The notes under the pieces were generated by a model. That model searched no databases, was not told the DNA's origin, and saw only the letters and a program-made list of their open reading frames with translations. Shown in pieces: positions 1 through 13,182 of a DNA stretch of 13,754 nt. Source of the DNA: a virus. Its lineage: Duplodnaviria > Heunggongvirae > Uroviricota > Caudoviricetes. Every line of letters starts with the position of its first letter. The first letter of the stretch is position 1. The stretch lies in the IMG/VR virus record IMGVR_UViG_2534682222_000011. The stretch is one strand, 5' to 3'. A program made the translations under genes and the position numbers.

Positions 1-192
1 AGATCTACTTTAGCAAGCCAAAATGTCACGAAGTTATCTGATGACATAACTTATCCTTGATAATTATTGTATGGATAGATTATCCAGAAATTTGCGAACT
101 GAGTCGGTCATTTTTTTTTTGTGTGCGCGTGATGTAATAAAGGTTCAGGAATATACTGTCAGTTTACTGAAAAACTGGCAACAGAGGCGGTT

Positions 193-420
193 ATGAGCGA
201 GAGTTACGAGTTCTCAGCAGGTTGTTTTTTGAAGCTATCAATATCTTCAGGGTATTTCACTATCAAAATTCAGGGAGATCTCCCCGCTCGTGCAGCTAGT
301 GCCATCTTGGCAGATGATGTCGAGCAGGTTTTATCTCAACTAGACAAATGTTTTCAGCTGAGTAATAGGCAACGAGAAGGGATCGTTAAGTATCTTATGT
401 CGAAGGGGATGCAGCCTTGA
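193..420 (+). CDS. hypothetical small protein (75 aa)
   Basis: ATG-initiated ORF; its TGA stop (418-420) overlaps the ATG (420-422) of the next ORF, suggesting translational coupling. No recognisable motif. Confidence 0.4.
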   Translation: MSESYEFSAGCFLKLSISSGYFTIKIQGDLPARAASAILADDVEQVLSQLDKCFQLSNRQREGIVKYLMSKGMQP

Positions 421-878
421 TGACTTGGATCACCCAAACAGATAACTGGACAGGGATCGCGGCGTGGGCGGGTTTTGCTTTGTCCGTATTTCAATTACTA
501 AAATCCAGAACATCGCTAAGGCTTTATCTCGGATGTGATCAGCACGAGGACAGGATATACGTTTCGAACATAAGCGCACACGATGTAACGTTGAGTGCAG
601 CCGGTGTGGTAACAGCCAGTGGACGCCTTAGAATGTTATCCGACGAATATTCGGACGAGAACATGATCACACCGATGCTGCCAAAAAGATTGAAAGCACG
701 AGACGAAATGGTCTTGAACGTGCCATTCATAAATAAGGCTCATCACAACAAAGTGCATCATCGTGGCGGGGTTTATATCAAAACATCTGACGGCAAGATG
801 TTCAGTGATGTTTGTTGGATCAAACGCCAATGGTGGTGGTTACTGTCTGTAATACTACGAGACACAAAGCGATACTAA
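420..878 (+). CDS. hypothetical membrane-anchored protein (152 aa)
   Basis: N-terminal hydrophobic stretch WTGIAAWAGFALSVFQLL fits a single TM helix or signal anchor. ATG at 420 preferred over the TTG at 417 used by the ORF track. Confidence 0.45.
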   Translation: MTWITQTDNWTGIAAWAGFALSVFQLLKSRTSLRLYLGCDQHEDRIYVSNISAHDVTLSAAGVVTASGRLRMLSDEYSDENMITPMLPKRLKARDEMVLNVPFINKAHHNKVHHRGGVYIKTSDGKMFSDVCWIKRQWWWLLSVILRDTKRY

Positions 879-968
879 GTTGATTGATAGTCCGAGGTGA
901 TGTTCTGCCCAGCGTAGTTGCTGGGTGATACACCTTCAATGATTCTTGTTAGTGTGTAGGGGGGGGGC

Positions 969-1187
969 ATGTTGGATTTTAAAGCTGAGTTTGTTGGCGG
1001 CAGCCATAGCGGCGAGGTTATATCACCGATGTCCGAGGTAGAACTTAATAAACTAGGGTATAGAGTCCATTTACGTGGTGCCCCCTCTGGCGATGAAATG
1101 CCTGTACACGTTGTTGTACCTATTGAATGGTCAGCGGATGAAGCACACAGAGCCATAATGCAGCGCTGGGGTAAACGCAGACGGTAG
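969..1187 (+). CDS. hypothetical protein (72 aa)
   Basis: ORF with balanced charged composition, directly preceded by a G9 homopolymer (959-967). The competing antisense ORF 875-1198 is S/T/P-rich low-complexity and judged less likely. Confidence 0.3.
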   Translation: MLDFKAEFVGGSHSGEVISPMSEVELNKLGYRVHLRGAPSGDEMPVHVVVPIEWSADEAHRAIMQRWGKRRR

Positions 1188-1904
1188 ATGTCGCGCATTT
1201 CTCTTAAACTGGCTGCTGTGTTTGGTGCTAATTATCCATGCAAAGTGGCCTAAGCTACGTGGAAGAATGATCAGTTTCGCATTATTTGGTTCAAGGAGGG
1301 CTCCCCCACAGCCTCACTCTCTGAATGCAAAACAGCCCCACAATCCCACTGTTAAAAGTCCCAGCTTGAAAATTGCACGCTTATGGTTGCCCCTCCCTCA
1401 ACTCTATAGCTCGCCCGCGCCCCCGTGTGCATGTGCGTGCCCGCGCGTCAGGGGTCGCTGAGAAACCCTAAGATTTTGCTCATCCGAGACAAGCATTACA
1501 GGAGCGTGCTACTGAGCGAGATGCTGGCTGATTGCTGTTGCTGAATAACCGTGTGGGACGAGTGCTGCGATCATCTGCCTTTCACTGTGTATCTGTACAT
1601 CCCTCTAAAACGATCTGTATCGCTCTGTGCTGCGTTCTGTGCTTCCAATGTGTGATTCAATGCCTTTGTGATTTCGAGATCGTGGCGGTGCCGTGCTGAT
1701 CTGCTGCGTGCGCTCTACGCTGTGTTCGCTGGATGTGCCGGGGAATGCTGCTGTGGGGCGGTGCCAGTCTCTTTCGGGTATACCTGATAAAGACATAGAC
1801 ACACTGTCTCATTTGACTATCTATAAAACTCTATTGACTACACATTATTGATGTGATCTCTTATAGGTCTTGCTGTGATATTTCATTGAGACTTAGGGGG
1901 AAGC

Positions 1905-2537
1905 ATGGCACACAATGCGCTTATCTATTGCCGCGCCAGTACATCAGAGCAACACGCAGACCGGGCGCTGGGCTTGCTGCGAGAGTTCGCCAGTGATCGG
2001 GGCTGGCCTGTACGGGCGGAGTACATCGAGAACGCCAGCGGTGCGAGGCTGGCGCGTCCTGAACTAATGCGCTTGCTGGATGATGCGCAGGCCGGAGAGG
2101 TCTTGCTTGTCGAGAGCATCGACAGGCTAAGCCGCCTTACGCAAAAGGAATGGGCGACACTGAAACAGAGGATTCAGGATAAGGGACTGGTGATCGTTGC
2201 CGTTGACCTGCCAACCTCATGGCAACTACTGAACGATACGGCGTCAGAGCTTACAGAGGGCATCCTGAGAGCTGTTAACGCAATGCTGATTGATATCCTC
2301 GCTACGATGGCACGAGTGGACTACGAGACACGCAGAGCACGCCAAGCGCAGGGCATCAAGCGTGCCAAAGCCGAGGGGAAATATAACGGGAAGTCTAAGG
2401 ATGAGAGCGCCCGTGAAACTGTCCGCGCTATGCTTACCGTTGGGAATAAACCAGAGCACATCATGAAAGCTGCCGGGATAAGCCGGGCAACGTTCTACCG
2501 TATCAAACGTGAGCTGTCCGCCAGCGTTACAGAGTGA
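1905..2537 (+). CDS. serine recombinase, resolvase/invertase family (210 aa)
   Basis: N-terminal catalytic motif LIYCRASTSEQ (Y-x-R-x-S-T-x-x-Q, presumed nucleophile Ser), SG...R...GEVLLVESIDRLSR core, and C-terminal helix-turn-helix (ISRATFYRIKRE), as in small serine recombinases. Purine-rich SD-like GGGGGAAG precedes the ATG. Confidence 0.9.
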   Translation: MAHNALIYCRASTSEQHADRALGLLREFASDRGWPVRAEYIENASGARLARPELMRLLDDAQAGEVLLVESIDRLSRLTQKEWATLKQRIQDKGLVIVAVDLPTSWQLLNDTASELTEGILRAVNAMLIDILATMARVDYETRRARQAQGIKRAKAEGKYNGKSKDESARETVRAMLTVGNKPEHIMKAAGISRATFYRIKRELSASVTE

Positions 2538-2953
2538 TGACCTACAGTCTGATGAGATGCCAGCACTGGCCGTTACTGGGCTGTGGGTGATGGATGGCCT
2601 ACAGCTTTTGTATTGATATCAGATATTTATGTTATGCCTAATCTCGTAATGGTATGATTTATAATGTATTTCCGTATTACTTGCGGCTCTTGATATGAAG
2701 AGATGGCGGGGCTTTAGCCGTGCCAGACGATGAGTATCAAGATCAGATTGTGAATGTGATTTATCACTGAACAATTCGAGGGATGGGGCAGGGGAAGGGA
2801 TCAAAGGCTGTGTTGTCCAATCACTCAGCTAGATTTGAAGCAGGGCAACACCTTCGTTTTACCTTTAAAGTTGCATTTAAAATACATGTACAGAAAAGGG
2901 TTCTTCCCTTTCATCCCTTCTCCTAATCAGTGTTATCGCTTTTCGCTCTACAC

Positions 2954-3023
2954 TGGCTGCGCTTCTCGCTATGCTCCAGCCCGCTCCATCGCCTTTGGCT
3001 CATTCCCGGCCTTCGCCCGCTGT
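2954..3023 (+). repeat. scrambled tRNA-Gly 3'-half-like fragments (possible decayed att scar / left junction)
   Basis: Contains GCTCTACA, CCCGCTCCA, ATTCCC and a 12-nt exact match CCTTCGCCCGCT to the tRNA-derived att at 13224-13251, same orientation but out of order. Confidence 0.3.
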
Positions 3024-3080
3024 GATGCTCGGCCCTCCACGCAACCGTGCTTGCCAGGCAGTCAACGCGGCGGGGATAGA

Positions 3081-3113
3081 GTAGTGGTACGGTACTATAT
3101 TGGGATATGGTAC
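3081..3113 (+). repeat. GGTAC direct repeats (candidate integrase arm-type sites)
   Basis: GGTAC at 3086-3090, 3091-3095 and 3109-3113. The reverse-complement motif ([C/G]TACC) is clustered at 13152-13182 next to the integrase start. Confidence 0.25.
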
Positions 3114-3288
3114 TCACAATGCCGCTTATAACCCCTTACATCCCAGCATCCCAACAAACCTACTGAAAGTTATCAGCAAATCATTCATCAAGTCAGACAG
3201 GGCAAGGCTTACAAAGGTGTTGATTAAAAAATAATCAAATTAGAGTTTCTACTGTGGCAAAACGAACACCACTCGCTTGTGCATACGT

Positions 3289-3354
3289 AGTGACCTACAT
3301 GAAAGTCACTACTAAAGAGGGACAGAACATTCAACGTCACTGCTGACATGAAAT
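3289..3354 (+). promoter_or_regulatory. operator-like repeats upstream of helicase gene
   Basis: Dyad AGTGAC-N10-GTCACT (3289-3310) and direct repeat ACATGAAA (3297-3304 and 3347-3354), in the non-coding leader 75-140 bp upstream of the 3428 start. Confidence 0.3.
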
Positions 3355-3427
3355 TCTCTCTACGGGCAGCTCGGCGCTGCCGTCCTGCGCCTCGTTCTAA
3401 ACTCACCTTAATTTTGGAGATTTCACC

Positions 3428-5272
3428 ATGCCAACGAACCTACGCCGTTTGCTTGCGCAGGCTGCCGACGCTGACCCGCTCAATACCGCAAACGCAGATG
3501 TACAGCAAATGGTCGCTGACGGGATTGTTATTCGGCGTTCCAAGATATGCCCGATAAAGCATAAACCCGTTAAGGCGGCATACAACACGAAGACCGAAGA
3601 GTTTTATTACAATGCTGATGGCTCCGCTATGACCCTGCGGGAATGGCGAGCGCTGCATGGTGTTCAACCGAAGAAGCAAAAACAGCGCTCTGACACGGGG
3701 TTGCGGCAAGTCATCCAGCCCGGTGACGCAATTCATTGCCGACGCGCTGAGATAGAAATGTGGCTCAACAAGAAGCCTGCTCGGTATGCTGACCCGCTGC
3801 CGCCTGATTTTCCCGGTGTTCGCGTAGATGATGCCGCATTGAAACCGCGCGAGCACGCCGTTTCGGCATCGACAACCGGGCAGAATGCTTTTCTCAAAGC
3901 CTGCCGCGAGTTCCTGATTTGTGATGAGAAGACTATACACCGCATCAACAGGGGCATGAATAAACTGGAAGCGATGCGCAATTCAGATTTCAAACGCTAC
4001 GGGGACTCAGCGGAGTTTCGTCAATTGTGGTGTGGAGAGTCGAAACCTACCGAGGATAAATTTAACAGTACAAATCATCATTGTGACCCAAACGGCTTGG
4101 CAGTGTCGCCGTCTGTGCCGTCACTGAATACAGCCTCTTATGAGTTTCGCCCGCTGGTTCGCTGTGACCGAAACGCACGCGTTAGCCTGTTGCCACCCGA
4201 TGGGCTGGAGTGGAGGCCGGGGCAGTTGTCTGTTGCTGATGCGATCTTCTCCCGTGGTAGTGATGTGCTGGCCGTTCTGCCTACGGGTTATGGCAAGACC
4301 GCCGCCTTCGCTTATCCATTGATTTATGAGTCCCGCGCTGGCGTTGGCCTGTCTGTAATCGTGGTTCCCACTAATACCCTAAAGCGCCAGATTCTCCGCC
4401 AGTTGCGGGATGCTGGCGTTCACGCTGTGGCATTCGGTGACAAGTTGCCGAGGCACCGCAACGCTCAACAACTCGCGGGGCTGGCTGCCGGGGCGTTCCG
4501 TGTTGCTGTCGTTTCACCTGAGCATCTTGTTCTGTCGAGTCAGGTCTTCGCGGCGCTGATGGCTTACGGCGTTGATCGTTTTATCATCGACGAAGCGCAC
4601 ACGGTTAAAGACTGGGATTTCCGACCCGCTTACGAGGCCATGCAGCACTCGCTACAACATGCCTTTCTTTCGGCTCAACGCTGCGTATTTACGGCTACGC
4701 TGCTACGCGAAAATGAGCGCAGTTTAATGGCGTCGCTTGGCTGCCGTGGTGATTACGTAACATTCCGTGCTGATGTTGCTCGCGAAAATATCCAGTTGAC
4801 GACAGTCAGACAGTGCCGCGAACGTTTCCGAGCGGCTATTGGTCTGGTCGAGGCTCTGCCGAAAGAAGAGAAGACGCTCATTCTCGTCAATGACCTTAAG
4901 ACGTTGCGGGCGTACCTGAAACTCTTAGGCGACCGGGCGCGCCCATATCACTCGAAGACGATGCACTTGAGTAACGAAGAACGCCACGCAAACGCTGAGT
5001 GGTTTGCCACTACGCCGGGCGCAATTCTGATTGCTACTAAAGCCTTCGGGCTGGGGGCTGATGTGCCAGACATTCGCAACGTCATCGTTACATATATTCC
5101 TGATGACCTGCCTGACCTCATTCAGATGATTGGACGAGCCGGGCGCGATGGTCAACCTGCCCGCGCGTTTCTGCTGTGGTCATCGCTGGCGCTGGATGCT
5201 GCGCCTGATGAGCTTGCTTACTTCTACCGCCCTGAAAACTGCAACTGGCAGTACATCGCTAAATACCTCTGA
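3428..5272 (+). CDS. SF2 DEAH-box helicase, RecQ-like core, with ~270-aa N-terminal extension (614 aa)
   Basis: Helicase motifs in order: LPTGYGKT (I/Walker A), VVPTNTL (Ia), IIDEAH (II), FTATL (III), LIATKAFGLGADV (V), QMIGRAGRDGQ (VI, RecQ-type). N-terminal part has an excisionase/AlpA-like winged-helix signature (TLREWRALHGV ... GDAIHCRRAEIEMWL). GGAG RBS 10 nt upstream of the ATG. Confidence 0.9.
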   Translation: MPTNLRRLLAQAADADPLNTANADVQQMVADGIVIRRSKICPIKHKPVKAAYNTKTEEFYYNADGSAMTLREWRALHGVQPKKQKQRSDTGLRQVIQPGDAIHCRRAEIEMWLNKKPARYADPLPPDFPGVRVDDAALKPREHAVSASTTGQNAFLKACREFLICDEKTIHRINRGMNKLEAMRNSDFKRYGDSAEFRQLWCGESKPTEDKFNSTNHHCDPNGLAVSPSVPSLNTASYEFRPLVRCDRNARVSLLPPDGLEWRPGQLSVADAIFSRGSDVLAVLPTGYGKTAAFAYPLIYESRAGVGLSVIVVPTNTLKRQILRQLRDAGVHAVAFGDKLPRHRNAQQLAGLAAGAFRVAVVSPEHLVLSSQVFAALMAYGVDRFIIDEAHTVKDWDFRPAYEAMQHSLQHAFLSAQRCVFTATLLRENERSLMASLGCRGDYVTFRADVARENIQLTTVRQCRERFRAAIGLVEALPKEEKTLILVNDLKTLRAYLKLLGDRARPYHSKTMHLSNEERHANAEWFATTPGAILIATKAFGLGADVPDIRNVIVTYIPDDLPDLIQMIGRAGRDGQPARAFLLWSSLALDAAPDELAYFYRPENCNWQYIAKYL

Positions 5273-5310
5273 GTCGAAAGGCTCCCCCTCATTCTCTGGA
5301 GTTAATCCAT

Positions 5311-5748
5311 ATGCCTGTTACCGAACATGCGCAGCGTCGTGCTACGCGTGCGGATGCGCTCGTCACCGCACAACTTGCCTTCGCCCTGAACGGATATTCC
5401 TTCGATGGGTTAGCTGAGCGCCACCGCCAGACTCTTAATCGTGCGGCCATCTTGCGCCAAGCTGGTACGCCGCTACAGCGGTATTGCCTGCTCAATCACT
5501 GTGAGCCTTGGGAATGTCTGGCCGCTGTGCTGAATAGATTCCGACGCCGGGAGGATGGCGCTCGTCTTTGGCCGACCTATCGCATGGCTCGTGAGGTCTT
5601 TAATGGGACTGTTCACCCTGCCAACAAGACGCGCGACGAGATATTTCAATCTGTGCAGCGTCGCCTCTTTTTACCAAAACCAGTACACGCCGAAGTAATC
5701 CAGTACCTGCGCGTAATGGGGCTGACAGGAGTTAATCCGCATGACTAA
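5311..5748 (+). CDS. hypothetical protein (145 aa)
   Basis: ORF with GGAG RBS about 10 nt upstream; first in a chain of overlapping, translationally coupled ORFs. Confidence 0.6.
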   Translation: MPVTEHAQRRATRADALVTAQLAFALNGYSFDGLAERHRQTLNRAAILRQAGTPLQRYCLLNHCEPWECLAAVLNRFRRREDGARLWPTYRMAREVFNGTVHPANKTRDEIFQSVQRRLFLPKPVHAEVIQYLRVMGLTGVNPHD

Positions 5749-5947
5749 AACCGAGTTTGAAAATGAAACGTGGCGAATGAAAGGCTTGCTTCTTGGGGCG
5801 CTAATCCGCCGCCTTGAGGAAGACAAGGCTGGTGAGTCGCGCATGGCCGCAGCGGAGTTATCCAGTGCGGTCAACTTCCTTAAGGCCAATGCCGTAGAAG
5901 CGCCGGACACGTCATTTAACCGTGTATTTGAGGATGACGAGCAATGA
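5741..5947 (+). CDS. hypothetical protein (68 aa)
   Basis: Start overlaps the end of the upstream ORF by 8 nt; GGAG RBS with the same spacing as the upstream gene; acidic C-terminus. Confidence 0.5.
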   Translation: MTKTEFENETWRMKGLLLGALIRRLEEDKAGESRMAAAELSSAVNFLKANAVEAPDTSFNRVFEDDEQ

Positions 5948-6120
5948 CACCCGCAGAGTTTAGAGCATGGTTTGCAACCCTGCCGCCGAACTATCAGAGC
6001 GCAGCACGAGCCATGTATGAAAGCGCCCGCAAGACGGGAACACACACCGCTTCCAGCCTGCTACTCATTCGCACGCTGATTGAAGATCAAATCAATTTCG
6101 ATGGAGACTTTACCTTATGA
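5944..6120 (+). CDS. hypothetical protein (58 aa), not in supplied ORF track
   Basis: Hand-translated: ATG at 5944 overlaps the upstream TGA (ATGA); uninterrupted to TGA at 6118-6120, which overlaps the next ATG at 6117 (ATGA). Fits the coupled-operon pattern. Confidence 0.4.
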   Translation: MTPAEFRAWFATLPPNYQSAARAMYESARKTGTHTASSLLLIRTLIEDQINFDGDFTL

Positions 6121-6680
6121 CAGTTCTGAGCCTGACCGATATCCAGCGCATCAATACCCTCGTTAAGCGCGACCTTCGCAATGTGGAAGAGGTAGTCGCT
6201 GCAACCGGATTTGACCCGGAGGACGTTGACGCGGTGCTGCGCGGCGTTTATGTAGCCGACCTTGCCAACCAGTGGAGGGATGAAGCCGCTATTACGCTGG
6301 AGGAATACAACGCCATCCGTAAGCGCTGGAAACCGGGGCGCGGCCACTGGGACACTGCACATGCCATTGCACGCGATTTTCTAATTCGGCCTGAAACTGT
6401 GCTGGCTATCGTCCATTCCCGCTTTAGCAACGCCCACACCCACCCGATGCCGAAAGCAGTTAAAGCAAAGCCTGAGAAACCGCAGACGATGCGCCGCCTG
6501 TTGAGCGCCGACCTCGATCAGATGCACAAGCTGGAGCGCTTCGGCTGGAAACAAACCGAGATCGCTGGGGAGCTTGGGATCTCTGCTGAGGCTGTTGCTC
6601 ATGTCCTGCGCCTGATGCGTAGCAAGTGGTCTTATCCAGATATTTTGGAAGACGTTAACACGCGATTCGGGGCTAAGTGA
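6117..6680 (+). CDS. hypothetical DNA-binding protein with C-terminal HTH (187 aa)
   Basis: C-terminal segment WKQTEIAGELGISAEAVAHVLRLM resembles a helix-turn-helix; start overlaps upstream stop. Confidence 0.65.
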   Translation: MTVLSLTDIQRINTLVKRDLRNVEEVVAATGFDPEDVDAVLRGVYVADLANQWRDEAAITLEEYNAIRKRWKPGRGHWDTAHAIARDFLIRPETVLAIVHSRFSNAHTHPMPKAVKAKPEKPQTMRRLLSADLDQMHKLERFGWKQTEIAGELGISAEAVAHVLRLMRSKWSYPDILEDVNTRFGAK

Positions 6681-6913
6681 TGGCAGAGAACGAACCGCTG
6701 CACCCTGCCGTTAACCCTGATCTCTATGTGAACCTTGACGAACAGCGCGAGGGATACGCCCCGTTTGAATCACGCGGCTGGGATGTGCTGACACAGAACC
6801 TGTCCGGGGAAGGGCGAACTGATCCCGGCCAAGCACCAAACCAGAATCCAAGGCAGCGACCGCGTGGCTCCGTTGGCGAGCGACGTTGGTTGCGTCGTCA
6901 TGGCCTTATCTAA
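6680..6913 (+). CDS. hypothetical protein (77 aa)
   Basis: ATG at 6680 overlaps the upstream TGA (TGATG); the ORF track's GTG at 6677 is less likely. Basic, Pro/Arg-rich C-terminus. Confidence 0.45.
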   Translation: MAENEPLHPAVNPDLYVNLDEQREGYAPFESRGWDVLTQNLSGEGRTDPGQAPNQNPRQRPRGSVGERRWLRRHGLI

Positions 6914-6927
6914 CTGAGGATTATTTC

Positions 6928-7167
6928 ATGAGCACCATTATTTTAATGGAGCCACGCCGCGCGGCTGATTGCGGGCAACAACTGAAATTCATTGCCGAAG
7001 CCTTGAATCTTCGTCAAATCGATTTGGCTCATGTGTACCAGATCGACAGACAAGATCTCGGCAAAGCGTACCACGGACAGAAGATGATTCCTGCCCGATG
7101 CGTACACGCGCACATGCTTTTACTTGAACTGGCACATCGCCGAGTTACATCACAAGAGGTTGCATAA
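6928..7167 (+). CDS. hypothetical protein (79 aa), possible small HTH regulator
   Basis: ATG at 6928 with GAGGA RBS 7 nt upstream, preferred over the TTG at 6886. Segment LNLRQIDLAHVYQIDRQDLGK is HTH-like. Confidence 0.45.
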   Translation: MSTIILMEPRRAADCGQQLKFIAEALNLRQIDLAHVYQIDRQDLGKAYHGQKMIPARCVHAHMLLLELAHRRVTSQEVA

Positions 7168-7169
7168 TC

Positions 7170-7856
7170 ATGGCTGACCAGAATGTTAATCCGTACCTTT
7201 CGGGCGCTGATACTGCGCCGCAGCAATCGCCGTACATGGCCGCACCTGTAGGCGCTGACAACGGCGCTAGCAGATTCGACCAGACAACACCTGATGCTGA
7301 TTTCCTGAAAACGCAGCCAGCGAACATTAATCAAAGCTGGAACGAAAGTAACTTTGCCAACCAGCAAGACCAGCAGATTGATGTTGCTGCGCAAGTGGGC
7401 GACACGCTGCAATTACAGGATGGCACTACTGTTGAGTTGACTCCTGAACTTCATGGGCTGATGGGGCAGTTTCACCAGTCTGTCGAAAGCCAGCTAGGGC
7501 AGGGGACAGTTGACGCGATGTTGCAGTACGCTGGCACGCTCGACGCCGGGACGCAATCAACCCTTGAACGGATGGTTATGTCTGGCGACCCTGCGCAGAT
7601 GCAGCGGGCGGTTCATTATCTGCAAGAGCGTATGGTCGCAGGCACTGCGACTGGTTATGTCCCATCACAGGGGAACCCATACGGCCAGCCTGCCTCGCAA
7701 CCTGTTGGTATGTCTCATGCTGAGTTTATTGCAGCGTATGATCAGCTTTCGCAGTGGGCGCAGCAATCAGGGTATGGCCCCGGCCATCGCCAGTACGACG
7801 ATCAATACCGCGCTCTGGTTGCGCAGCGCTCCGCTGGCAAACGCGCTGGCCGTTAA
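7170..7856 (+). CDS. hypothetical Gln/Ala-rich acidic protein (228 aa)
   Basis: AAGAGG RBS 10 nt upstream of ATG. Q-rich, acidic, low-complexity composition of the kind seen in scaffold or decoration-type proteins, but no diagnostic motif. Confidence 0.65.
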   Translation: MADQNVNPYLSGADTAPQQSPYMAAPVGADNGASRFDQTTPDADFLKTQPANINQSWNESNFANQQDQQIDVAAQVGDTLQLQDGTTVELTPELHGLMGQFHQSVESQLGQGTVDAMLQYAGTLDAGTQSTLERMVMSGDPAQMQRAVHYLQERMVAGTATGYVPSQGNPYGQPASQPVGMSHAEFIAAYDQLSQWAQQSGYGPGHRQYDDQYRALVAQRSAGKRAGR

Positions 7857-7916
7857 GCAATCGCCTGTCCTGTCTTCCCCACGTCTTAACCTTACGTTTT
7901 AGAGCCTGAATCGCGT

Positions 7917-7936
7917 TGTACATCGCCAGATGTACA
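7917..7936. promoter_or_regulatory. TGTACA-N8-TGTACA palindromic repeat pair (candidate activator/operator site)
   Basis: TGTACATCGCCAGATGTACA lies in the 160-bp intergenic gap between the 228-aa and 115-aa genes. Confidence 0.3.
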
Positions 7937-8015
7937 TTCGTATACCTGCACCTGTAAAACGCGAAATTACCTCTCAAACACCACACATAAACCCACTTTG
8001 CATTGAGATCTGACA

Positions 8016-8363
8016 ATGACCTTACTGACACCTGAAAACGTGGCAGCGGCTAGGGCTGCCCGTAGCGCGAGGATTGAACACTGGAAAGCCAACGCCAGCC
8101 AGCTTAAGCAGGACTTTGCTGACGAAGCGCACTGGCGGCGGCTCGCCTCACGCTTCGGCGTGCGTATGCCCTCGGCGTATGTTCCCGGCTCCGAGCTGCG
8201 ATTGCTGCGCCGGGCGGCCAAACGCGCGGGCATCTCTGGTGCTGATATGCGCGATGCTTTTGGTGGGGGCGTTGCGCACCTGCACGAGCTTAATCCCCAT
8301 TGGCCTGCCTTCGCGCTTATCGGCCTGATTCTTGAGATCGCGGCTGAAAAAGCTGCTGCCTGA
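8016..8363 (+). CDS. hypothetical protein (115 aa)
   Basis: ORF after an intergenic gap; Ala/Arg-rich; weak RBS. No recognisable motif. Confidence 0.55.
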   Translation: MTLLTPENVAAARAARSARIEHWKANASQLKQDFADEAHWRRLASRFGVRMPSAYVPGSELRLLRRAAKRAGISGADMRDAFGGGVAHLHELNPHWPAFALIGLILEIAAEKAAA

Positions 8364-8431
8364 TTCATCCCATTCTCTTTTCCCCTTTTCCATAAATCGC
8401 GCTGGCTAACGCTGGCGCGGGAGCTATTTCT

Positions 8432-9427
8432 ATGACTGACAATGTTTATACCCCTGACCAATTCCGCCCGCACTGGGGCGGTGTAGATGCTGACAACGAC
8501 ATTCACATTGAAGCGTATGACCGGGACGTTCAGACCCGCCTTGAGGCAAAGAGCGTGTTTCTCGCCGAGGGGCTGAGCACATACAAGCCGCTGAAAAACA
8601 GTAATCAGTATCGTGTAGACCGCCTGAGCGGAGATCTGGAGGTGAAGGGCAGAACCGCAGGGCAATCGCTGGAGCCTACCGCCGTTAAGTCGGACAAGCT
8701 GATTATCTCTGTGGATACGCTGAGCTATATCCGCATCCCGATTGACTATCAAGACGACTGGACAGCGCCCACCTTTCGCGCAGAGCTGAGCCGCAACATG
8801 GGGACAGCCCATGCAAAGTTCTACGACGAAGCGCACACTATCCAGCTAATCAAAGCGACTGACTTTGTACCGCCGCCTACGTTGCAACCAACGTTTAACC
8901 CGCTGACGGATAATGTTGTCTCGCTCGACCTGACAACGGGGAGCGAAGAGGATGCGGCTAACGAACTGGTTCACGCTATTAAAGCTGCTGTTAATCGATT
9001 CCTAACTGAAAAAGATATTCCGGTGGCGGAGCTGTGCCTTCTCATCGACCCAGCTTGGTTCAGCATCCTGATGGAACATAAGAAGTTGATGAACGTCCGT
9101 TACAGCCGGGATAGTGGCAATGATTACGCATGGCGTCGCGTTGGCTATGTCGCTGGGGTGCGAGTTATTGAGCTGAACAGTTACCCGCAGGAAGCCATTA
9201 CCGCGCATGAACTGGGCGCTGATTATGATGTGACCGCAGGGGAAGCGCTGACACGGGCGACGCTGTTCCGGCCTGCGTCTGTACTTGTGACAGTCGAAGC
9301 GCAGAGCGTTATCAATCGCCAGTGGGATGATGAACGCGAAATGACAATGGTGATGGACTCATATCGCCTGTTCAATGTTGGGCTGCGCCGCCCTGACTGC
9401 GTTATAAATTTCCGACAAGCTGCATAA
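8432..9427 (+). CDS. hypothetical protein (331 aa), possibly structural/morphogenetic
   Basis: GGGAG RBS 8 nt upstream of ATG. Largest protein of the late-region-like block; no catalytic motif seen; role inferred from context only. Confidence 0.7.
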   Translation: MTDNVYTPDQFRPHWGGVDADNDIHIEAYDRDVQTRLEAKSVFLAEGLSTYKPLKNSNQYRVDRLSGDLEVKGRTAGQSLEPTAVKSDKLIISVDTLSYIRIPIDYQDDWTAPTFRAELSRNMGTAHAKFYDEAHTIQLIKATDFVPPPTLQPTFNPLTDNVVSLDLTTGSEEDAANELVHAIKAAVNRFLTEKDIPVAELCLLIDPAWFSILMEHKKLMNVRYSRDSGNDYAWRRVGYVAGVRVIELNSYPQEAITAHELGADYDVTAGEALTRATLFRPASVLVTVEAQSVINRQWDDEREMTMVMDSYRLFNVGLRRPDCVINFRQAA

Positions 9428-9443
9428 CAAAAGGGGCCGAGCC

Positions 9444-9971
9444 ATGAATATTGATGCTTATGCCCCGGAGCTGTTGCGCTCTTTGTTTCGGTACGATGCG
9501 AAGACTGGCCGCCTGTTCCATGCAGTAGACCGGATCGGAGCCAACAAGCGGATTTACGCTAAAGCCGGGGAACTGGCCGACACGGTAACGGACAGCGCCG
9601 GATATAGGCGCGTATCTGTCCGCATCAATGGCAAATCTCATGCGCTATACGCCCACCGTGTCGCCTTCATCATTGCTAATGACGGTATCCCTGCCGGGAT
9701 GCAAATCGACCATATCAACGCGGTACGCGATGACAACCGCCTTATCAATCTCCGCACGGTTACGCCACAAGAGAACCAGCACAATTACCGCAAAGCCAAG
9801 GGTTATAGCCACCATGCCTGCTCTGGCAGATGGGAGGCTTACATTCGCGTTGGTGGTGTTCGCCATCACCTCGGCTTATTCACTACCGAAGCGGCGGCGC
9901 GTGCTGCGTACCTGAAAGCTAAAGCCAGATACCATCCGTCAACGCCAGCCGATTTATTGCAGGCTGCCTAA
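9444..9971 (+). CDS. HNH endonuclease with C-terminal AP2-type DNA-binding domain (175 aa)
   Basis: HNH_3-like motif (YRRVSVRINGKSHALYAHRVAFIIANDGIPAGMQIDHINAVRDDNRLINLRTVTPQENQHN) followed by AP2-like GRWEAYIRVGGVRHHLGLFTTEAAARAAY. AAGGGG RBS upstream. Confidence 0.85.
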   Translation: MNIDAYAPELLRSLFRYDAKTGRLFHAVDRIGANKRIYAKAGELADTVTDSAGYRRVSVRINGKSHALYAHRVAFIIANDGIPAGMQIDHINAVRDDNRLINLRTVTPQENQHNYRKAKGYSHHACSGRWEAYIRVGGVRHHLGLFTTEAAARAAYLKAKARYHPSTPADLLQAA

Positions 9972-9989
9972 TCCTCGGAGGTTCCATTA

Positions 9990-10415
9990 ATGGCTGATGA
10001 AAAGCCGATTAGAGCGCTGGCAGATGATGACCCGCGCCGCCAGCGGTACGCTGAACTGTTGGCGCAGGCTGGCCGCATGACTATTCCACGGCTGCATCCG
10101 GGCGATGCTAACAGTGTTATGAGTCAGCTTGCGACAATGCTCGGAGCACCTGTCCCGATAGTAGGTGCTATGACTGAGCACGCCGCTGCATGGCGTGCCT
10201 GTCTTCTGGAGCAAGGGCTTGGTGATCTTCTGGATGGCTTGAGTAAGCAGGTGCTGACCATCTTCTTTCTGCTCTGCTGGAGAGACAGCGCCTTGCGATT
10301 GGCGGGTAAGCAAAAGGAACGGTTTGCAGCGGCCAGCGAGGGTTTGACCATTGAGCAATACCGGGCAATGCACCCGGCTTACAGAGAGGATAAAGAAAAT
10401 GATAACCACGATTAA
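9990..10415 (+). CDS. hypothetical protein (141 aa); position suggests a small-terminase-like or packaging-redirection protein
   Basis: Strong GGAGG RBS 8 nt upstream. Functional guess rests only on its place directly downstream of the HNH endonuclease. Confidence 0.6.
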   Translation: MADEKPIRALADDDPRRQRYAELLAQAGRMTIPRLHPGDANSVMSQLATMLGAPVPIVGAMTEHAAAWRACLLEQGLGDLLDGLSKQVLTIFFLLCWRDSALRLAGKQKERFAAASEGLTIEQYRAMHPAYREDKENDNHD

Positions 10416-10698
10416 ATTAAGGTGGCGGTACATCGAGCCGCCACCAATGACTGGCGCACTCGCTGACCTGAAACAGTGGGTAATGGATACCGGAGAGCCT
10501 GAGCTTGAAGCTAAATTTCGTAAGCTGCTGGGGCTGATGCGCCGCAATGGTATCAGTGACGAACGTGTTAATGCGATGGCCGCCGAGCTTTATGCTCTGG
10601 TATGCCAACGCCAGCGCGAAGAATACGAAGCCTGCAAACGGGCTGCATCTGACAGTGGAGGCTTTGAATCATGGTTACACGGACAGACCAACTACTAA
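10399..10698 (+). CDS. hypothetical protein (99 aa)
   Basis: ATG at 10399 preceded by GAGAGGA RBS and overlapping the upstream stop region; preferred over the in-frame ATG at 10351, which lies 65 nt inside the upstream gene. Confidence 0.55.
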   Translation: MITTIKLRWRYIEPPPMTGALADLKQWVMDTGEPELEAKFRKLLGLMRRNGISDERVNAMAAELYALVCQRQREEYEACKRAASDSGGFESWLHGQTNY

Positions 10699-11108
10699 GA
10701 AAAGCGATGCGAGGCTATCTGGAATATCTCGGCAACATGCCGCTAGCGGAACGCATTAAAAATTCTGCTGCGTTCGATGATGTGTATCACTTCCTGTTGA
10801 ATGGTTCAGGACGGCTGGAGTTGCGCCGCGCTGATGTGGCCGCTGTCCGTGTCTTCCTGTGGAATTATCAATACCGACGCTGCGCGGTGACAGCTAAGCC
10901 GCTACGCCTCGCGTCTGCTGTATTGGATCACTGTCACCGAACTGGACGTGTGCGCGCTGTGGTTCATCGTTCGGCCAATGCAGCGGAAGGTGGTTATTAT
11001 GTGGGAAATTTGTGCGGACTCTCACGAAGTAGCATGTTAAGCATGCTACCTGCCTACCGCCGACAATACAAGGGGTTGGGCGTTATTTATCCAAGACAAC
11101 ATGCGTGA
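10671..11108 (+). CDS. hypothetical protein (145 aa)
   Basis: GGAGG RBS 9 nt upstream of ATG; overlaps upstream ORF by 28 nt. Confidence 0.55.
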   Translation: MVTRTDQLLRKAMRGYLEYLGNMPLAERIKNSAAFDDVYHFLLNGSGRLELRRADVAAVRVFLWNYQYRRCAVTAKPLRLASAVLDHCHRTGRVRAVVHRSANAAEGGYYVGNLCGLSRSSMLSMLPAYRRQYKGLGVIYPRQHA

Positions 11109-11186
11109 TGAGATTATTTCTTTTATTTTCATTCGGTTATGTGTTGTTGTGGCTGCCTTGTTACTTGCCTATATTTAAAACAATTC

Positions 11187-11225
11187 TTGACGGATTGACG
11201 TAGATTGCGTAGGCTGAGCATAAAA
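11187..11225 (+). promoter_or_regulatory. putative sigma70-type promoter for the two-gene cassette
   Basis: Tandem TTGACG hexamers (11187-11192 and 11195-11200) with candidate -10 elements TAGGCT (17-bp spacer from the first) or CATAAA (18-bp spacer from the second), in an AT-rich intergenic region. Which pair is used is unresolved. Confidence 0.35.
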
Positions 11226-11309
11226 CAGTTTCCTAATATGTCTCCAAACTGAGCTTCAACTTGAGAATACTTCGTTCCTACATCTCCCTTGAAGGGGTAG
11301 GAGGATAAT

Positions 11310-11519
11310 ATGAACTTTGATATGCGTACAAACCAAAATTGTGCATCGTTTTTTAACCCAGCAACCAAGGCGTTTGTCGTCGTTGATTCGTTTGACAACT
11401 ACGAATTCGATGTGCGTGCTGGTACTTTATCACGCACTGAATTTGTAGGCACCATCACAGCTTCAAACGATGAAGAGTTGAACAAGAAATTAGCTGAGAT
11501 CACGGCTGCACACATATGA
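11310..11519 (+). CDS. hypothetical small protein (69 aa), cassette gene A
   Basis: Very strong RBS (AGGAGG, 5-nt spacer); AT-rich codon usage unlike the upstream block; stop overlaps next start (ATGA). Confidence 0.6.
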   Translation: MNFDMRTNQNCASFFNPATKAFVVVDSFDNYEFDVRAGTLSRTEFVGTITASNDEELNKKLAEITAAHI

Positions 11520-11890
11520 TAACTCAACAGCAGATTGATGATTTAGTTGCAGATATTAACGATATCTTGGAAGAAGATAGAGCCAAGCTAAAGATGTCAT
11601 TTCATTTTGCTGTTGATAGACTTAATGATCCGCGTAATAAACCTCCAATCACGTTAGCTGAGTTGAGAGTGATTTTTACAAATTTCATTGGACAACACTT
11701 GCAGACAATTCTAGGCAAAGATGAGGGATTTTCCTTCACTATCAAGTGTCAGAAATCTGGTATTGCTATACCGTGCGCTATAGAGCATGAACTTGATATC
11801 GGTGCAAAGTGGGTAGTTCAGCAAGTGATCACCATCATGCGGAATCCGCAGTTTAACGCGTATCATGGTGATGTCATCTTTGATGTTTAA
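11516..11890 (+). CDS. hypothetical protein (124 aa), cassette gene B
   Basis: Translationally coupled to gene A; followed by a canonical intrinsic terminator. Confidence 0.65.
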   Translation: MITQQQIDDLVADINDILEEDRAKLKMSFHFAVDRLNDPRNKPPITLAELRVIFTNFIGQHLQTILGKDEGFSFTIKCQKSGIAIPCAIEHELDIGAKWVVQQVITIMRNPQFNAYHGDVIFDV

Positions 11891-11893
11891 AAG

Positions 11894-11916
11894 AAAGGCG
11901 CTATAGCGCCTTTTTT
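11894..11916. terminator. rho-independent terminator, plausibly bidirectional
   Basis: Hairpin AAAGGCGC-TATA-GCGCCTTT followed by a T6 run on the plus strand; the complement reads hairpin plus TTTCTTTT. Abuts the integrase stop codon. Confidence 0.7.
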
Positions 11917-13135
11917 ATAAACACGGATAACTGACCAACTCCACATACTCCCATAGTTCTTTCATCCCTGCTCCCTTGCTATATGTCCTGAAAGCTTCCG
12001 TTTTAGCTTTTTGTTCGGTATGCCCGGTTATTGCCCCTATGCGCTGTTCTGGTACTCCTGCTCTGTCTAAGCAAGTAATAAAGTGACCACGCAGGGAGTG
12101 GAAGCATTGGCGATCTGTAGCCGCTGACAGCACGCGACGGCGTAGCCGTGTAAATGCCTGCGAGTACCACGGGCCACGCTTACCGTCGGCACGTTTAATC
12201 TTGTTCGATTGGGGGAGCAGGTATTCACCGTTGTTCTGCGCAAGGTATTTATCAACGATGCTGATTAACAGCGAGTGTATGGGGACGTGCCTTACACCCG
12301 CTTTAGTTTTAGATTTGCTGACGTAGAAGCAGCGTACCCCTTCAACTTTGATAATCTCAACTCGTTTGATGCTGGCGATTTCGTCGAGACGCATACCGGA
12401 ATACAAACCGATTATGATTACGTCTCGTATCTCGCTACCTGCCTCTTTTATTAATGCCTGTAGCTGGTGTAGTTCAAAAGGTTGATAACTTTCGTTCGTC
12501 TGGCGGGCTTCCAGATTGTGGCCGTGAAAGGGATTATCAGGGGCGATATTGTCATATTTACGCCGGGCGAAGTCATACAGCGTCCCTAAGCAGGTTAACC
12601 AGTTTTGCAGCGTCTGGCGGGAAAACTTATCTTGGTTCGCTTCCAGAAAGTCAGAGACGAGCCGCCGCCCGATTCCATTTATTGTAATGGTTGGGCGTTT
12701 TATTGAATTAGTAAATGCCGATACAGCGCGAACTGATTTACTCAGCGTGGAATAAGAGCGCCGATCTTTGTATTGCTCTGCATATTCTTTACTGACATCT
12801 GTCAATTTTGGTGATGCTGGTTTTCCCCGCTCTGCTGGAATAGTTGCGGGTGTGGTAATGCTGCTGGATACCCCCGCCAGCAAGTGAAGATCTGTTACAG
12901 CGGAATGAATCCGGGTAATGGGGTTATCCGGTTTCATCATGAGCTGTAGCTTACGGAACTCTAATAAATATTGGTCACGGAAAATGCGAGCTTGCATGAT
13001 GTCCCGTGTGCCTGTCGATTTCTTGAGCGAGCGCCGCCCGTTCCAGAGGTGGCGCATGTAGACCGGAATATAGATTTGAAAGATGAATATCCCATCTTTG
13101 TTTGCATAAAGATAAGAAGTCTTCTTGATTGGCAT
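11915..13135 (-). CDS. int: tyrosine site-specific integrase (406 aa)
   Basis: C-terminal catalytic region with HSLRGHF (box II-like) and a downstream Tyr (RTYSKG). ATG at 13135 with AAGG RBS preferred over the TTG at 13165 used by the ORF track. Adjacent to the tRNA-derived att. Confidence 0.9.
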   Translation of the reverse strand: MPIKKTSYLYANKDGIFIFQIYIPVYMRHLWNGRRSLKKSTGTRDIMQARIFRDQYLLEFRKLQLMMKPDNPITRIHSAVTDLHLLAGVSSSITTPATIPAERGKPASPKLTDVSKEYAEQYKDRRSYSTLSKSVRAVSAFTNSIKRPTITINGIGRRLVSDFLEANQDKFSRQTLQNWLTCLGTLYDFARRKYDNIAPDNPFHGHNLEARQTNESYQPFELHQLQALIKEAGSEIRDVIIIGLYSGMRLDEIASIKRVEIIKVEGVRCFYVSKSKTKAGVRHVPIHSLLISIVDKYLAQNNGEYLLPQSNKIKRADGKRGPWYSQAFTRLRRRVLSAATDRQCFHSLRGHFITCLDRAGVPEQRIGAITGHTEQKAKTEAFRTYSKGAGMKELWEYVELVSYPCL

Positions 13136-13151
13136 GGTAATTACCTTGTAA

Positions 13152-13182
13152 TCTACCGCTACCAACTACCGGGATAAGTACC
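13152..13182 (-). repeat. clustered (C/G)TACC(G/A) repeats between int start and att (candidate arm-type sites)
   Basis: CTACCG, CTACCA, CTACCG and GTACCG within 31 bp; mirror the GGTAC repeats at 3086-3113. Confidence 0.3.

What the first reader, a model, noticed from the sequence alone, without database searches (positions are those of the whole stretch)
11110..11920. Self-contained AT-rich two-gene cassette between the last element gene and the integrase: candidate novel anti-phage or toxin-antitoxin cargo
A 69-aa and a 124-aa gene with an ATGA stop/start overlap sit in a visibly more AT-rich segment than the 3.4-11.1 kb block. They have their own promoter-like TTGACG-containing region, a near-consensus AGGAGG RBS and a perfect hairpin terminator. 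The position, just inside the integrase-proximal end, is where satellites and prophages are known to carry variable defence cargo. Neither protein shows a motif I recognise.
Basis: partly seen in the sequence, partly recalled or inferred. Interest (0 to 1): 0.75.

Follow-up and report, generated by a model that had tools for sequence, protein, structure and literature searches.

The report
KreTA toxin-antitoxin in satellite defence slot
The two small genes are real and form a toxin-antitoxin pair, but it is the already published KreTA system (a RegB-like RNase toxin and its protein inhibitor), here carried as swappable cargo next to the integrase of a phage-satellite-like island.

Summary
A 69-aa gene (11310-11519) and a 124-aa gene (11516-11890) overlap by ATGA. 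They follow an AGGAGG ribosome-binding site and end at a strong hairpin terminator (-18 kcal/mol, z -5.8). Their segment has 39.6% GC against 54.8% for the element body. The promoter is only weakly supported.

The cassette is not novel. On a 100%-identical E. coli record the two proteins are RefSeq WP_001008346.1 and WP_000632671.1. Those exact accessions were cloned and tested as KreA and KreT in Sci Adv 2025 (PMC12487901). KreT was toxic, KreA rescued it in trans, and KreT selectively blocked translation. My structure searches independently gave T4 RegB as the best match for KreT and immunity-protein-like matches for KreA.

The "variable cargo slot" idea is confirmed. Among nine relatives inspected, drawn from 60 E. 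coli genomes that share the flanking genes, the slot is empty or holds AbiTii proteins, a YafO toxin, a methyltransferase pair or unknown genes. Only one of the 60 genomes has KreTA. The same cassette also sits next to the integrase of a different capsid-bearing element and in two Uetakevirus phages.

Not in that paper as far as I read it: KreT-like genes are common in marine phages without KreA, and also occur fused into large multidomain phage proteins. An anti-phage role remains untested.

The parts
10671..11108 (+). Last backbone gene of the element (EndoVII-like endonuclease); left flank of the cargo slot
   Evidence: Pfam Endonuclease_7 2.8e-06; phrog_423 2.5e-15. Homology with relatives of the element ends between 10993 and 11211.
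11187..11224 (+). Promoter-like region: TTGACG twice (11187-11192, 11195-11200), near-direct repeat GATTGACGTA/GATTGCGTA, and weak -10 candidates TAGGCT (11210-11215) and CATAAA (11219-11224)
   Evidence: Read from the sequence. TTGAC(G/A)-17 nt-TAGGCT is kept in the copy on a different element, L014. The site is not reported by the consensus scan. Homology with L014 starts sharply at 11196.
11297..11302 (+). Shine-Dalgarno AGGAGG of kreA
   Evidence: Sequence. An SD-like purine run is kept in all six cassette copies aligned.
11310..11519 (+). kreA, 69-aa antitoxin (= WP_001008346.1)
11516..11890 (+). kreT, 124-aa toxin (= WP_000632671.1), RegB/RelE-like putative endoribonuclease. It has no SD of its own and is probably translationally coupled through ATGA.
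11891..11916 (.). Hairpin terminator between kreT and the convergent integrase gene, flanked by an A-run and a T-run (inferred bidirectional)
   Evidence: RNA fold -18 kcal/mol, z -5.8. Four of the five other cassette copies inspected have a hairpin of different sequence plus a T-run at this place.
11915..13165 (-). Tyrosine integrase; right flank of the slot (the 406-aa version starts at 13135)
   Evidence: ORF. Annotated as a tyrosine-type recombinase. Pfam Phage_integrase on the same gene in L011-L020. Homology with relatives resumes at 11925-11954.

Best explanation
The cassette is the KreTA type II toxin-antitoxin system. kreT (124 aa) encodes a RegB/RelE-fold protein that blocks translation, most likely by cutting mRNA. 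kreA (69 aa), translated first from the same transcript, binds KreT and covers its active site. KreA is a small sheet-plus-helix inhibitor with no recognised DNA-binding domain, so it resembles an immunity protein more than a classical antitoxin. The pair travels as one module (about 11196-11916) with its own upstream region, ribosome-binding site and terminator. In this window it is the cargo in a variable slot between the last backbone gene and the integrase of a capsid-gene-bearing, satellite-like integrative element. In relatives that slot carries abortive-infection and other defence or TA genes. Shown by published experiment: toxicity, rescue in trans, and a selective block of methionine incorporation. 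Shown here: identity with the tested proteins, the fold matches, the conserved motif, the modular mobility and the slot variability. Inferred: RNase chemistry, direct KreA-KreT binding, and the biological role. I consider phage exclusion by abortive infection somewhat more likely than pure island stabilisation.
Confidence: 0.9

Rival explanations
1. KreTA is mainly an addiction (post-segregational killing) module. It stabilises the satellite-like island or prophage in the chromosome and has no role against phages.
For: The pair is a validated TA. It sits next to the integrase, where loss by excision would be punished. It is found on at least three kinds of integrative element. It has no PADLOC match.
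Against: The same slot in relatives holds AbiTii abortive-infection proteins and a likely restriction-modification pair. Those are defence genes, not stabilisers. The slot can be empty, so the cargo is dispensable for keeping the element.
Confidence: 0.3
2. KreT is used by the element itself, as T4 uses RegB. On induction it acts as a programmed endoribonuclease that shuts off host or helper-phage early mRNAs, and KreA acts as the timer. Toxicity on overexpression would then be a side effect.
For: The best structural match is RegB. KreT-like genes stand alone, without KreA, inside one-directional gene runs of large marine phage contigs that also carry ribonucleotide reductase and a T4-type spanin. 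The domain is also fused into large multidomain phage proteins.
Against: In Enterobacterales the gene is always paired with KreA, has its own terminator, and lies in a swappable slot rather than in the element's conserved programme. Only 1 of 60 related elements has it.
Confidence: 0.12
3. The two ORFs are ordinary small phage proteins of unknown structural or regulatory role. The AT-rich cassette look is incidental.
For: Both fall in PHROG families of unknown function and have no Pfam annotation.
Against: Published toxicity and neutralisation data exist for these exact proteins. The pair is strictly conserved. The RNase-like fold and invariant basic/His residues also argue against it.
Confidence: 0.02

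Closest known systems
KreTA type II toxin-antitoxin system (Sci Adv 2025;11:eadz8560, PMC12487901)
   Same: Same proteins: the accessions WP_000632671.1 and WP_001008346.1 are annotated on the 100%-identical stretch. Same gene order and the same setting next to an integrase and a capsid gene.
   Different: Nothing differs in the cassette itself. Not found in the parts of that paper I read (its KreTA passages, via term searches): the variable-slot census, the copies in Uetakevirus phage genomes and PHROGs, the large KreA-less family in marine phages, and the conserved-residue list. The paper states that no sequence relatives exist in its viral database.
Bacteriophage T4 RegB endoribonuclease (PDB 2hx6)
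   Different: There is no significant sequence similarity (hhalign probability 11.5%; no Pfam or PDB-sequence hit). RegB H68 has no His counterpart. RegB has no known inhibitor partner and works in a lytic programme. KreT's target and any S1 or ribosome dependence are unknown.
RelE/YoeB/HigB/YafQ ribosome-dependent mRNA interferase toxins (BECR fold)
   Different: KreT has an extra N-terminal helix, like RegB. KreA has no RHH, Phd/YefM or HTH DNA-binding domain, so the usual autoregulation by the antitoxin is not evident. No family profile matches.
Defence hotspots of phages and satellites (P2/P4 hotspots, Rousset et al. 2022, PMC9122126)
   Same: A fixed position between conserved backbone genes, close to the integrase. 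It carries different defence or TA cargo in otherwise related elements.
   Different: The carrier is not P4-like, and is probably not cfPICI-like either (a comparison from memory, not tested). It has a DEAD-box helicase, a scaffold-like protein, a major head protein, HNH and EndoVII nucleases, and no recognisable portal or terminase. KreTA has not been shown to defend.
TriTu/TriX immunity proteins of Rhs ADP-ribosyltransferase toxins
   Different: The scores are weak, and many unrelated small alpha/beta proteins score alike. The cognate toxins are unrelated (ART versus RNase-like).

Membership tests
KreTA toxin-antitoxin system | Proteins identical to the tested KreT (WP_000632671.1) and KreA (WP_001008346.1) | tested here: met
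   The region is 100% identical in DNA to NZ_LR536431.1. The CDS there carry exactly these accessions. The accessions are quoted in the paper's methods.
KreTA toxin-antitoxin system | Conserved bicistronic kreA-kreT operon in prophage-like regions next to an integrase | tested here: met
   ATGA overlap. KreA directly precedes KreT in all 18 enterobacterial or phage loci, the window included. An integrase is adjacent in the window, L011-L020 and L030-32.
KreTA toxin-antitoxin system | Toxin arrests growth and the antitoxin neutralises it | not testable with these tools
   Reported for these proteins in PMC12487901 (Fig. 6C and D, as described).
RegB / RelE-like (BECR-fold) endoribonucleases | Shared fold: helices packed on a four-stranded antiparallel sheet | tested here: met
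RegB / RelE-like (BECR-fold) endoribonucleases | Counterpart of catalytic RegB His48 | tested here: inconclusive
   Invariant H30 aligns to H48 in hhalign, but the probability is 11.5%. The catalytic role of H48 is taken from PMC3014915.
RegB / RelE-like (BECR-fold) endoribonucleases | Counterpart of catalytic RegB His68 | tested here: not met
   H68 aligns to T55 of KreT. H68 is itself not conserved among the RegB homologues aligned here.
RegB / RelE-like (BECR-fold) endoribonucleases | Sequence-profile membership (Pfam or a PDB sequence) | tested here: not met
   No Pfam hit for KreT or 26 homologues. No meaningful PDB sequence hit.
RegB / RelE-like (BECR-fold) endoribonucleases | Endonucleolytic RNA cleavage | not testable with these tools
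   Only a translation block is reported.
Classical type II TA with a DNA-binding antitoxin | Antitoxin carries an RHH, HTH, AbrB or Phd-type DNA-binding domain | tested here: not met
Known anti-phage defence systems | Match to a curated defence model | tested here: not met
   PADLOC-DB v2: no family for either protein at E <= 1.
Known anti-phage defence systems | Located in a hotspot that carries known defence genes in related elements | tested here: met
   AbiTii, YafO, a methyltransferase pair, or empty.
Known anti-phage defence systems | Protects cells or populations from phage | not testable with these tools
   No phage assay appears in PMC12487901 ('anti-phage' and 'abortive' occur 0 times).

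The most novel reading that the evidence does not exclude
KreTA is an abortive-infection cargo of a previously unclassified family of capsid-gene-bearing satellites. That family has a defence hotspot between its EndoVII gene and its integrase. KreT is a domesticated member of a large, undescribed RegB-related family of phage early endoribonucleases. Lytic marine phages use this family without an inhibitor, and KreA evolved as the inhibitor that lets temperate elements carry it.
Probability: 0.4. Interest if true: 0.5.

Novelty: already known. Interest (0 to 1): 0.25.

Why it matters
That is a useful positive control for the scan, but it is not a discovery. What is left is modest. First, the slot between the EndoVII-like gene and the integrase of this element family behaves as a defence/TA hotspot and could be mined for further cargo, such as the 214-aa, 358-aa and DUF3606+92-aa occupants. 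Second, KreT links T4 RegB, long regarded as an orphan, to a family of hundreds of phage proteins. Third, whether KreTA defends against phages is still open.

Tried and rejected
- Pfam, PADLOC and PDB-sequence searches of both proteins and of a 27-member KreT alignment gave nothing meaningful.
- blastn of the cassette against phage genomes gave no match. tblastn found two Uetakevirus records.
- A KreA-linker-KreT fusion with a paired alignment was submitted to model the complex.
- The hhalign comparison of KreT with RegB was too weak to claim homology.
- Rfam found no RNA family in the window, so there is no sign of an RNA antitoxin.
- The search for direct repeats marking the island ends found only chance-level pairs, so the att sites remain unidentified.
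- The consensus scan found neither the + strand promoter nor the hairpin. The hairpin was confirmed by folding.
- Searches for the accessions of neighbouring element genes, and for 'RegB-like', found no papers.
- I first thought of a DUF4258-like toxin from the H..DR motif. I dropped it because no profile supports it and the fold match is to RegB/RelE.

Full report
**Observation.** The window has a 69-aa ORF at 11310-11519 and a 124-aa ORF at 11516-11890 on the + strand, overlapping by ATGA.
- AGGAGG lies 7 nt before the first ATG. The second gene has no ribosome-binding site of its own, which fits translational coupling.
- GC is 0.396 for 11109-11914 and 0.548 for 3428-11108. This is the lowest 0.5% of 806-bp windows in the sequence.
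- The hairpin AAAGGCGC-TATA-GCGCCTTT followed by a T-run (11894-11916) folds at -18 kcal/mol, z = -5.8 against shuffles.
- The hairpin lies between kreT and the convergent integrase gene, whose stop codon is inside the T-run.
- The consensus scan missed the hairpin and reported no + strand promoter. TTGACG occurs twice (11187-11200), but the -10 candidates are weak. The promoter is therefore plausible, not demonstrated.
- No tRNA is present in the window.

**Identity.** Megablast found the 811-bp region at 100% identity in one of 5,426 complete E. coli genomes, NZ_LR536431.1.
- There the two CDS are annotated WP_001008346.1 (69 aa) and WP_000632671.1 (124 aa).
- A full-text search for these accessions led to 'The Viral AlphaFold Database...' (bioRxiv 10.1101/2025.05.14.653371; Sci Adv 2025;11:eadz8560, PMC12487901).
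- Its methods state that kreT (WP_000632671.1) and kreA (WP_001008346.1) were cloned and tested.
- The paper reports four things:
  - KreT is toxic in E. coli BW25113.
  - KreA neutralises it in trans.
  - KreT selectively inhibits 3H-methionine incorporation.
  - KreA is predicted to cover a putative RNase site of KreT in a confident heterodimer model.
- The cassette in this window is therefore the published KreTA system itself.

**Independent checks.** These were made before I found the paper.
- Pfam and PADLOC gave nothing for either protein. PHROGs placed them in two families of unknown function: phrog_14630 (3.6e-39) and phrog_14518 (4.1e-65).
- Foldseek against BFVD hit an annotated RegB homologue (E 1.8e-4, TM 0.64-0.71) and several longer phage proteins.
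- An exhaustive profile search found 359 representative clusters.
- An alignment of 27 stand-alone members shows invariant H30, R35, N37, R40, N41, T106 and R109. The signature is S-x-HF-x(1,2)-DR-x-ND-x-RN-x-P-x-IT ... T(I/V)MR.
- Profile-profile comparison with a RegB alignment built here aligned only this motif. It placed H30/D34/R35 on RegB H48/D51/R52, at probability 11.5%.
- H48 is one of the two histidines reported as catalytic in RegB (PMC3014915). The other, H68, aligns to T55 and is not conserved among RegB homologues either.
- The RegB relation is thus supported by fold, is only hinted at by sequence, and is not a family membership.
- KreA modelled with high confidence (pLDDT 92.7) as a four-stranded sheet plus a C-terminal helix.

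**Context and mobility.** The surrounding element encodes:

| Window coordinates | Product |
|---|---|
| 3428-5272 | DEAD-box helicase |
| 7170-7856 | scaffold-like protein |
| 8432-9427 | major head protein (phrog_267, 2.8e-67) |
| 9444-9971 | HNH endonuclease |
| 10671-11108 | EndoVII-like endonuclease |
| 11915-13165 (minus strand) | tyrosine integrase |

. It looks like a capsid-gene-bearing phage satellite of a type I could not classify.

- The exact KreA protein is on record on hundreds of contigs.
- Eight of ten sampled places are this same island. Two (L014, L017) are a different element, with a Phage_cap_E capsid gene, a 714-aa protein and a different integrase. There the cassette again lies directly beside the integrase.
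- Against L014, DNA identity jumps from 51% to 84% at window position 11196. It is 96% in kreA and 91% in kreT. This sets the left edge of the mobile module.
- Yersinia (L030-32) and Serratia (L029) carry diverged pairs in the same arrangement.
- Two Uetakevirus phage records carry the pair downstream of an antirepressor-like gene.
- Five of the six copies inspected have a hairpin plus T-run after kreT, with differing sequences.

**The slot is variable.** The backbone flank (HNH to EndoVII) is found at 85-90% identity in 60 complete E. coli genomes, but only one has KreTA. Homology with these relatives ends at 10993-11211 and resumes at 11925-11954. Nine relatives were inspected:

| Locus | Slot content |
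|---|---|
| L021 | empty |
| L022 | DUF3606 protein plus a 92-aa protein |
| L023; L024 (E2348/69) | AbiTii-domain proteins of 305 and 300 aa (Pfam 3e-38 and 4e-44; PADLOC AbiTii) |
| L025, L036 | YafO-family toxin |
| L037 | 358-aa protein plus a DNA cytosine methyltransferase |
| L038, L039 | 214-aa unknown protein |

The pattern matches the hotspot concept described for P2/P4 (PMC9122126).

**Beyond the paper.** The paper states that KreT and KreA have no sequence relatives in its viral database. The following did not appear in the parts of the paper I read.
- The KreT domain is abundant in marine phage contigs of up to 143 kb. Examples carry ribonucleotide reductase and a T4-type spanin. 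There it is a stand-alone gene inside one-directional gene runs.
- In those contigs no KreA-like ORF lies within 4 kb (HMM search, E <= 1). In all 18 enterobacterial or phage loci, the window included, KreA directly precedes KreT.
- The domain also sits at the N- or C-terminus of 500-1,200-aa proteins. These combine it with cytidylyltransferase-like, zeta-toxin/AAA_33 kinase-like, DUF5824 and DUF3008 domains.
- One reading, which is inference only: a RegB-related phage endoribonuclease family is used unprotected by lytic phages, and temperate elements carry it together with an inhibitor.

**Mechanism and role.**
- Shown in the literature: toxicity, neutralisation and a translation block.
- Shown here: identity, fold, the conserved residues, strict pairing, modular mobility and the hotspot location.
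- Inferred: mRNA cleavage by a His/Arg site, occlusion of that site by KreA, and the biological role.
- I rate abortive-infection or phage exclusion as somewhat more likely than pure stabilisation of the element, because the slot-mates are defence genes. No assay addresses this.
- A self-serving RegB-like regulatory role for the element is a minor alternative.

**Verdict.** The finding is real and well described, and its interpretation as TA cargo in a variable slot is right. The cassette is already known and experimentally characterised, so novelty is 'already known' and interest is low to moderate. The residual value lies in the hotspot, the wider KreT/RegB family and the untested defence role.

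Noticed in passing
window 10993-11954; loci L021-L025, L036-L039: The slot between the EndoVII-like gene and the integrase behaves as a defence/TA hotspot. Among nine related E. coli elements inspected it is empty or holds AbiTii-domain proteins, a YafO toxin, a 358-aa protein plus a cytosine methyltransferase, a 214-aa unknown, or DUF3606 plus a 92-aa protein. The unknown occupants are candidates for new defence genes.
   Followed up: partly
window 3428-11108: The carrier element encodes a DEAD-box helicase, a scaffold-like protein, a major head protein (phrog_267), and HNH and EndoVII nucleases. It has no recognisable portal or terminase. It is a capsid-gene-bearing, satellite-like element that I could not assign to the P4, PICI or cfPICI types.
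   Followed up: partly
loci L026-L028, L033-L035; proteins P0035, P0049, P0057, P0059, P0069, P0113: KreT-like domains are common in marine phage contigs as stand-alone genes without KreA. They are also fused to cytidylyltransferase-like, zeta-toxin/AAA_33, DUF5824 and DUF3008 domains in 500-1,200-aa proteins, which resemble multi-effector 'polyvalent' phage proteins.
   Followed up: partly
window 11187-11212: TTGACG occurs twice, inside a near-direct repeat GATTGACGTA/GATTGCGTA just upstream of kreA. It could be an operator or overlapping -35 boxes. KreA has no evident DNA-binding domain, so what would bind here is unclear.
   Followed up: no
window 11297-11302: The kreA Shine-Dalgarno AGGAGG contains GGAG, the motif T4 RegB cuts in early-gene ribosome-binding sites. 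If KreT shares that specificity it could cut its own operon's mRNA. This is pure speculation.
   Followed up: no
window 11915-12286 versus L014 8606-8979: Nucleotide similarity with the different element L014 continues past the cassette into the 3' end of the integrase gene (about 72%) and then decays. This may reflect related integrases, or a recombination joint inside the integrase gene.
   Followed up: partly
window 1-3400: The left part of the window has low coding density. It holds a serine recombinase/resolvase gene (1905-2537) and a 153-aa ORF (417-878) with no family match. Some copies of the island lack the helicase-to-scaffold segment (L015, L020), which suggests internal deletions.
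   Followed up: no
L001 16031-16728 (about window 13124 onwards): The only complete RefSeq E. coli genome with the cassette diverges from the window after about position 13124, where it has an IS1 insertion. The window therefore comes from a different strain carrying the same island. The island lies between tRNA-Gly and the yqeG/ETT2-remnant region, with the integrase at the end away from the tRNA.
   Followed up: partly
window 11129-11398 (minus strand): An 89-aa minus-strand ORF overlaps the upstream region and the start of kreA. It was not compared with any library and is probably spurious.
   Followed up: no
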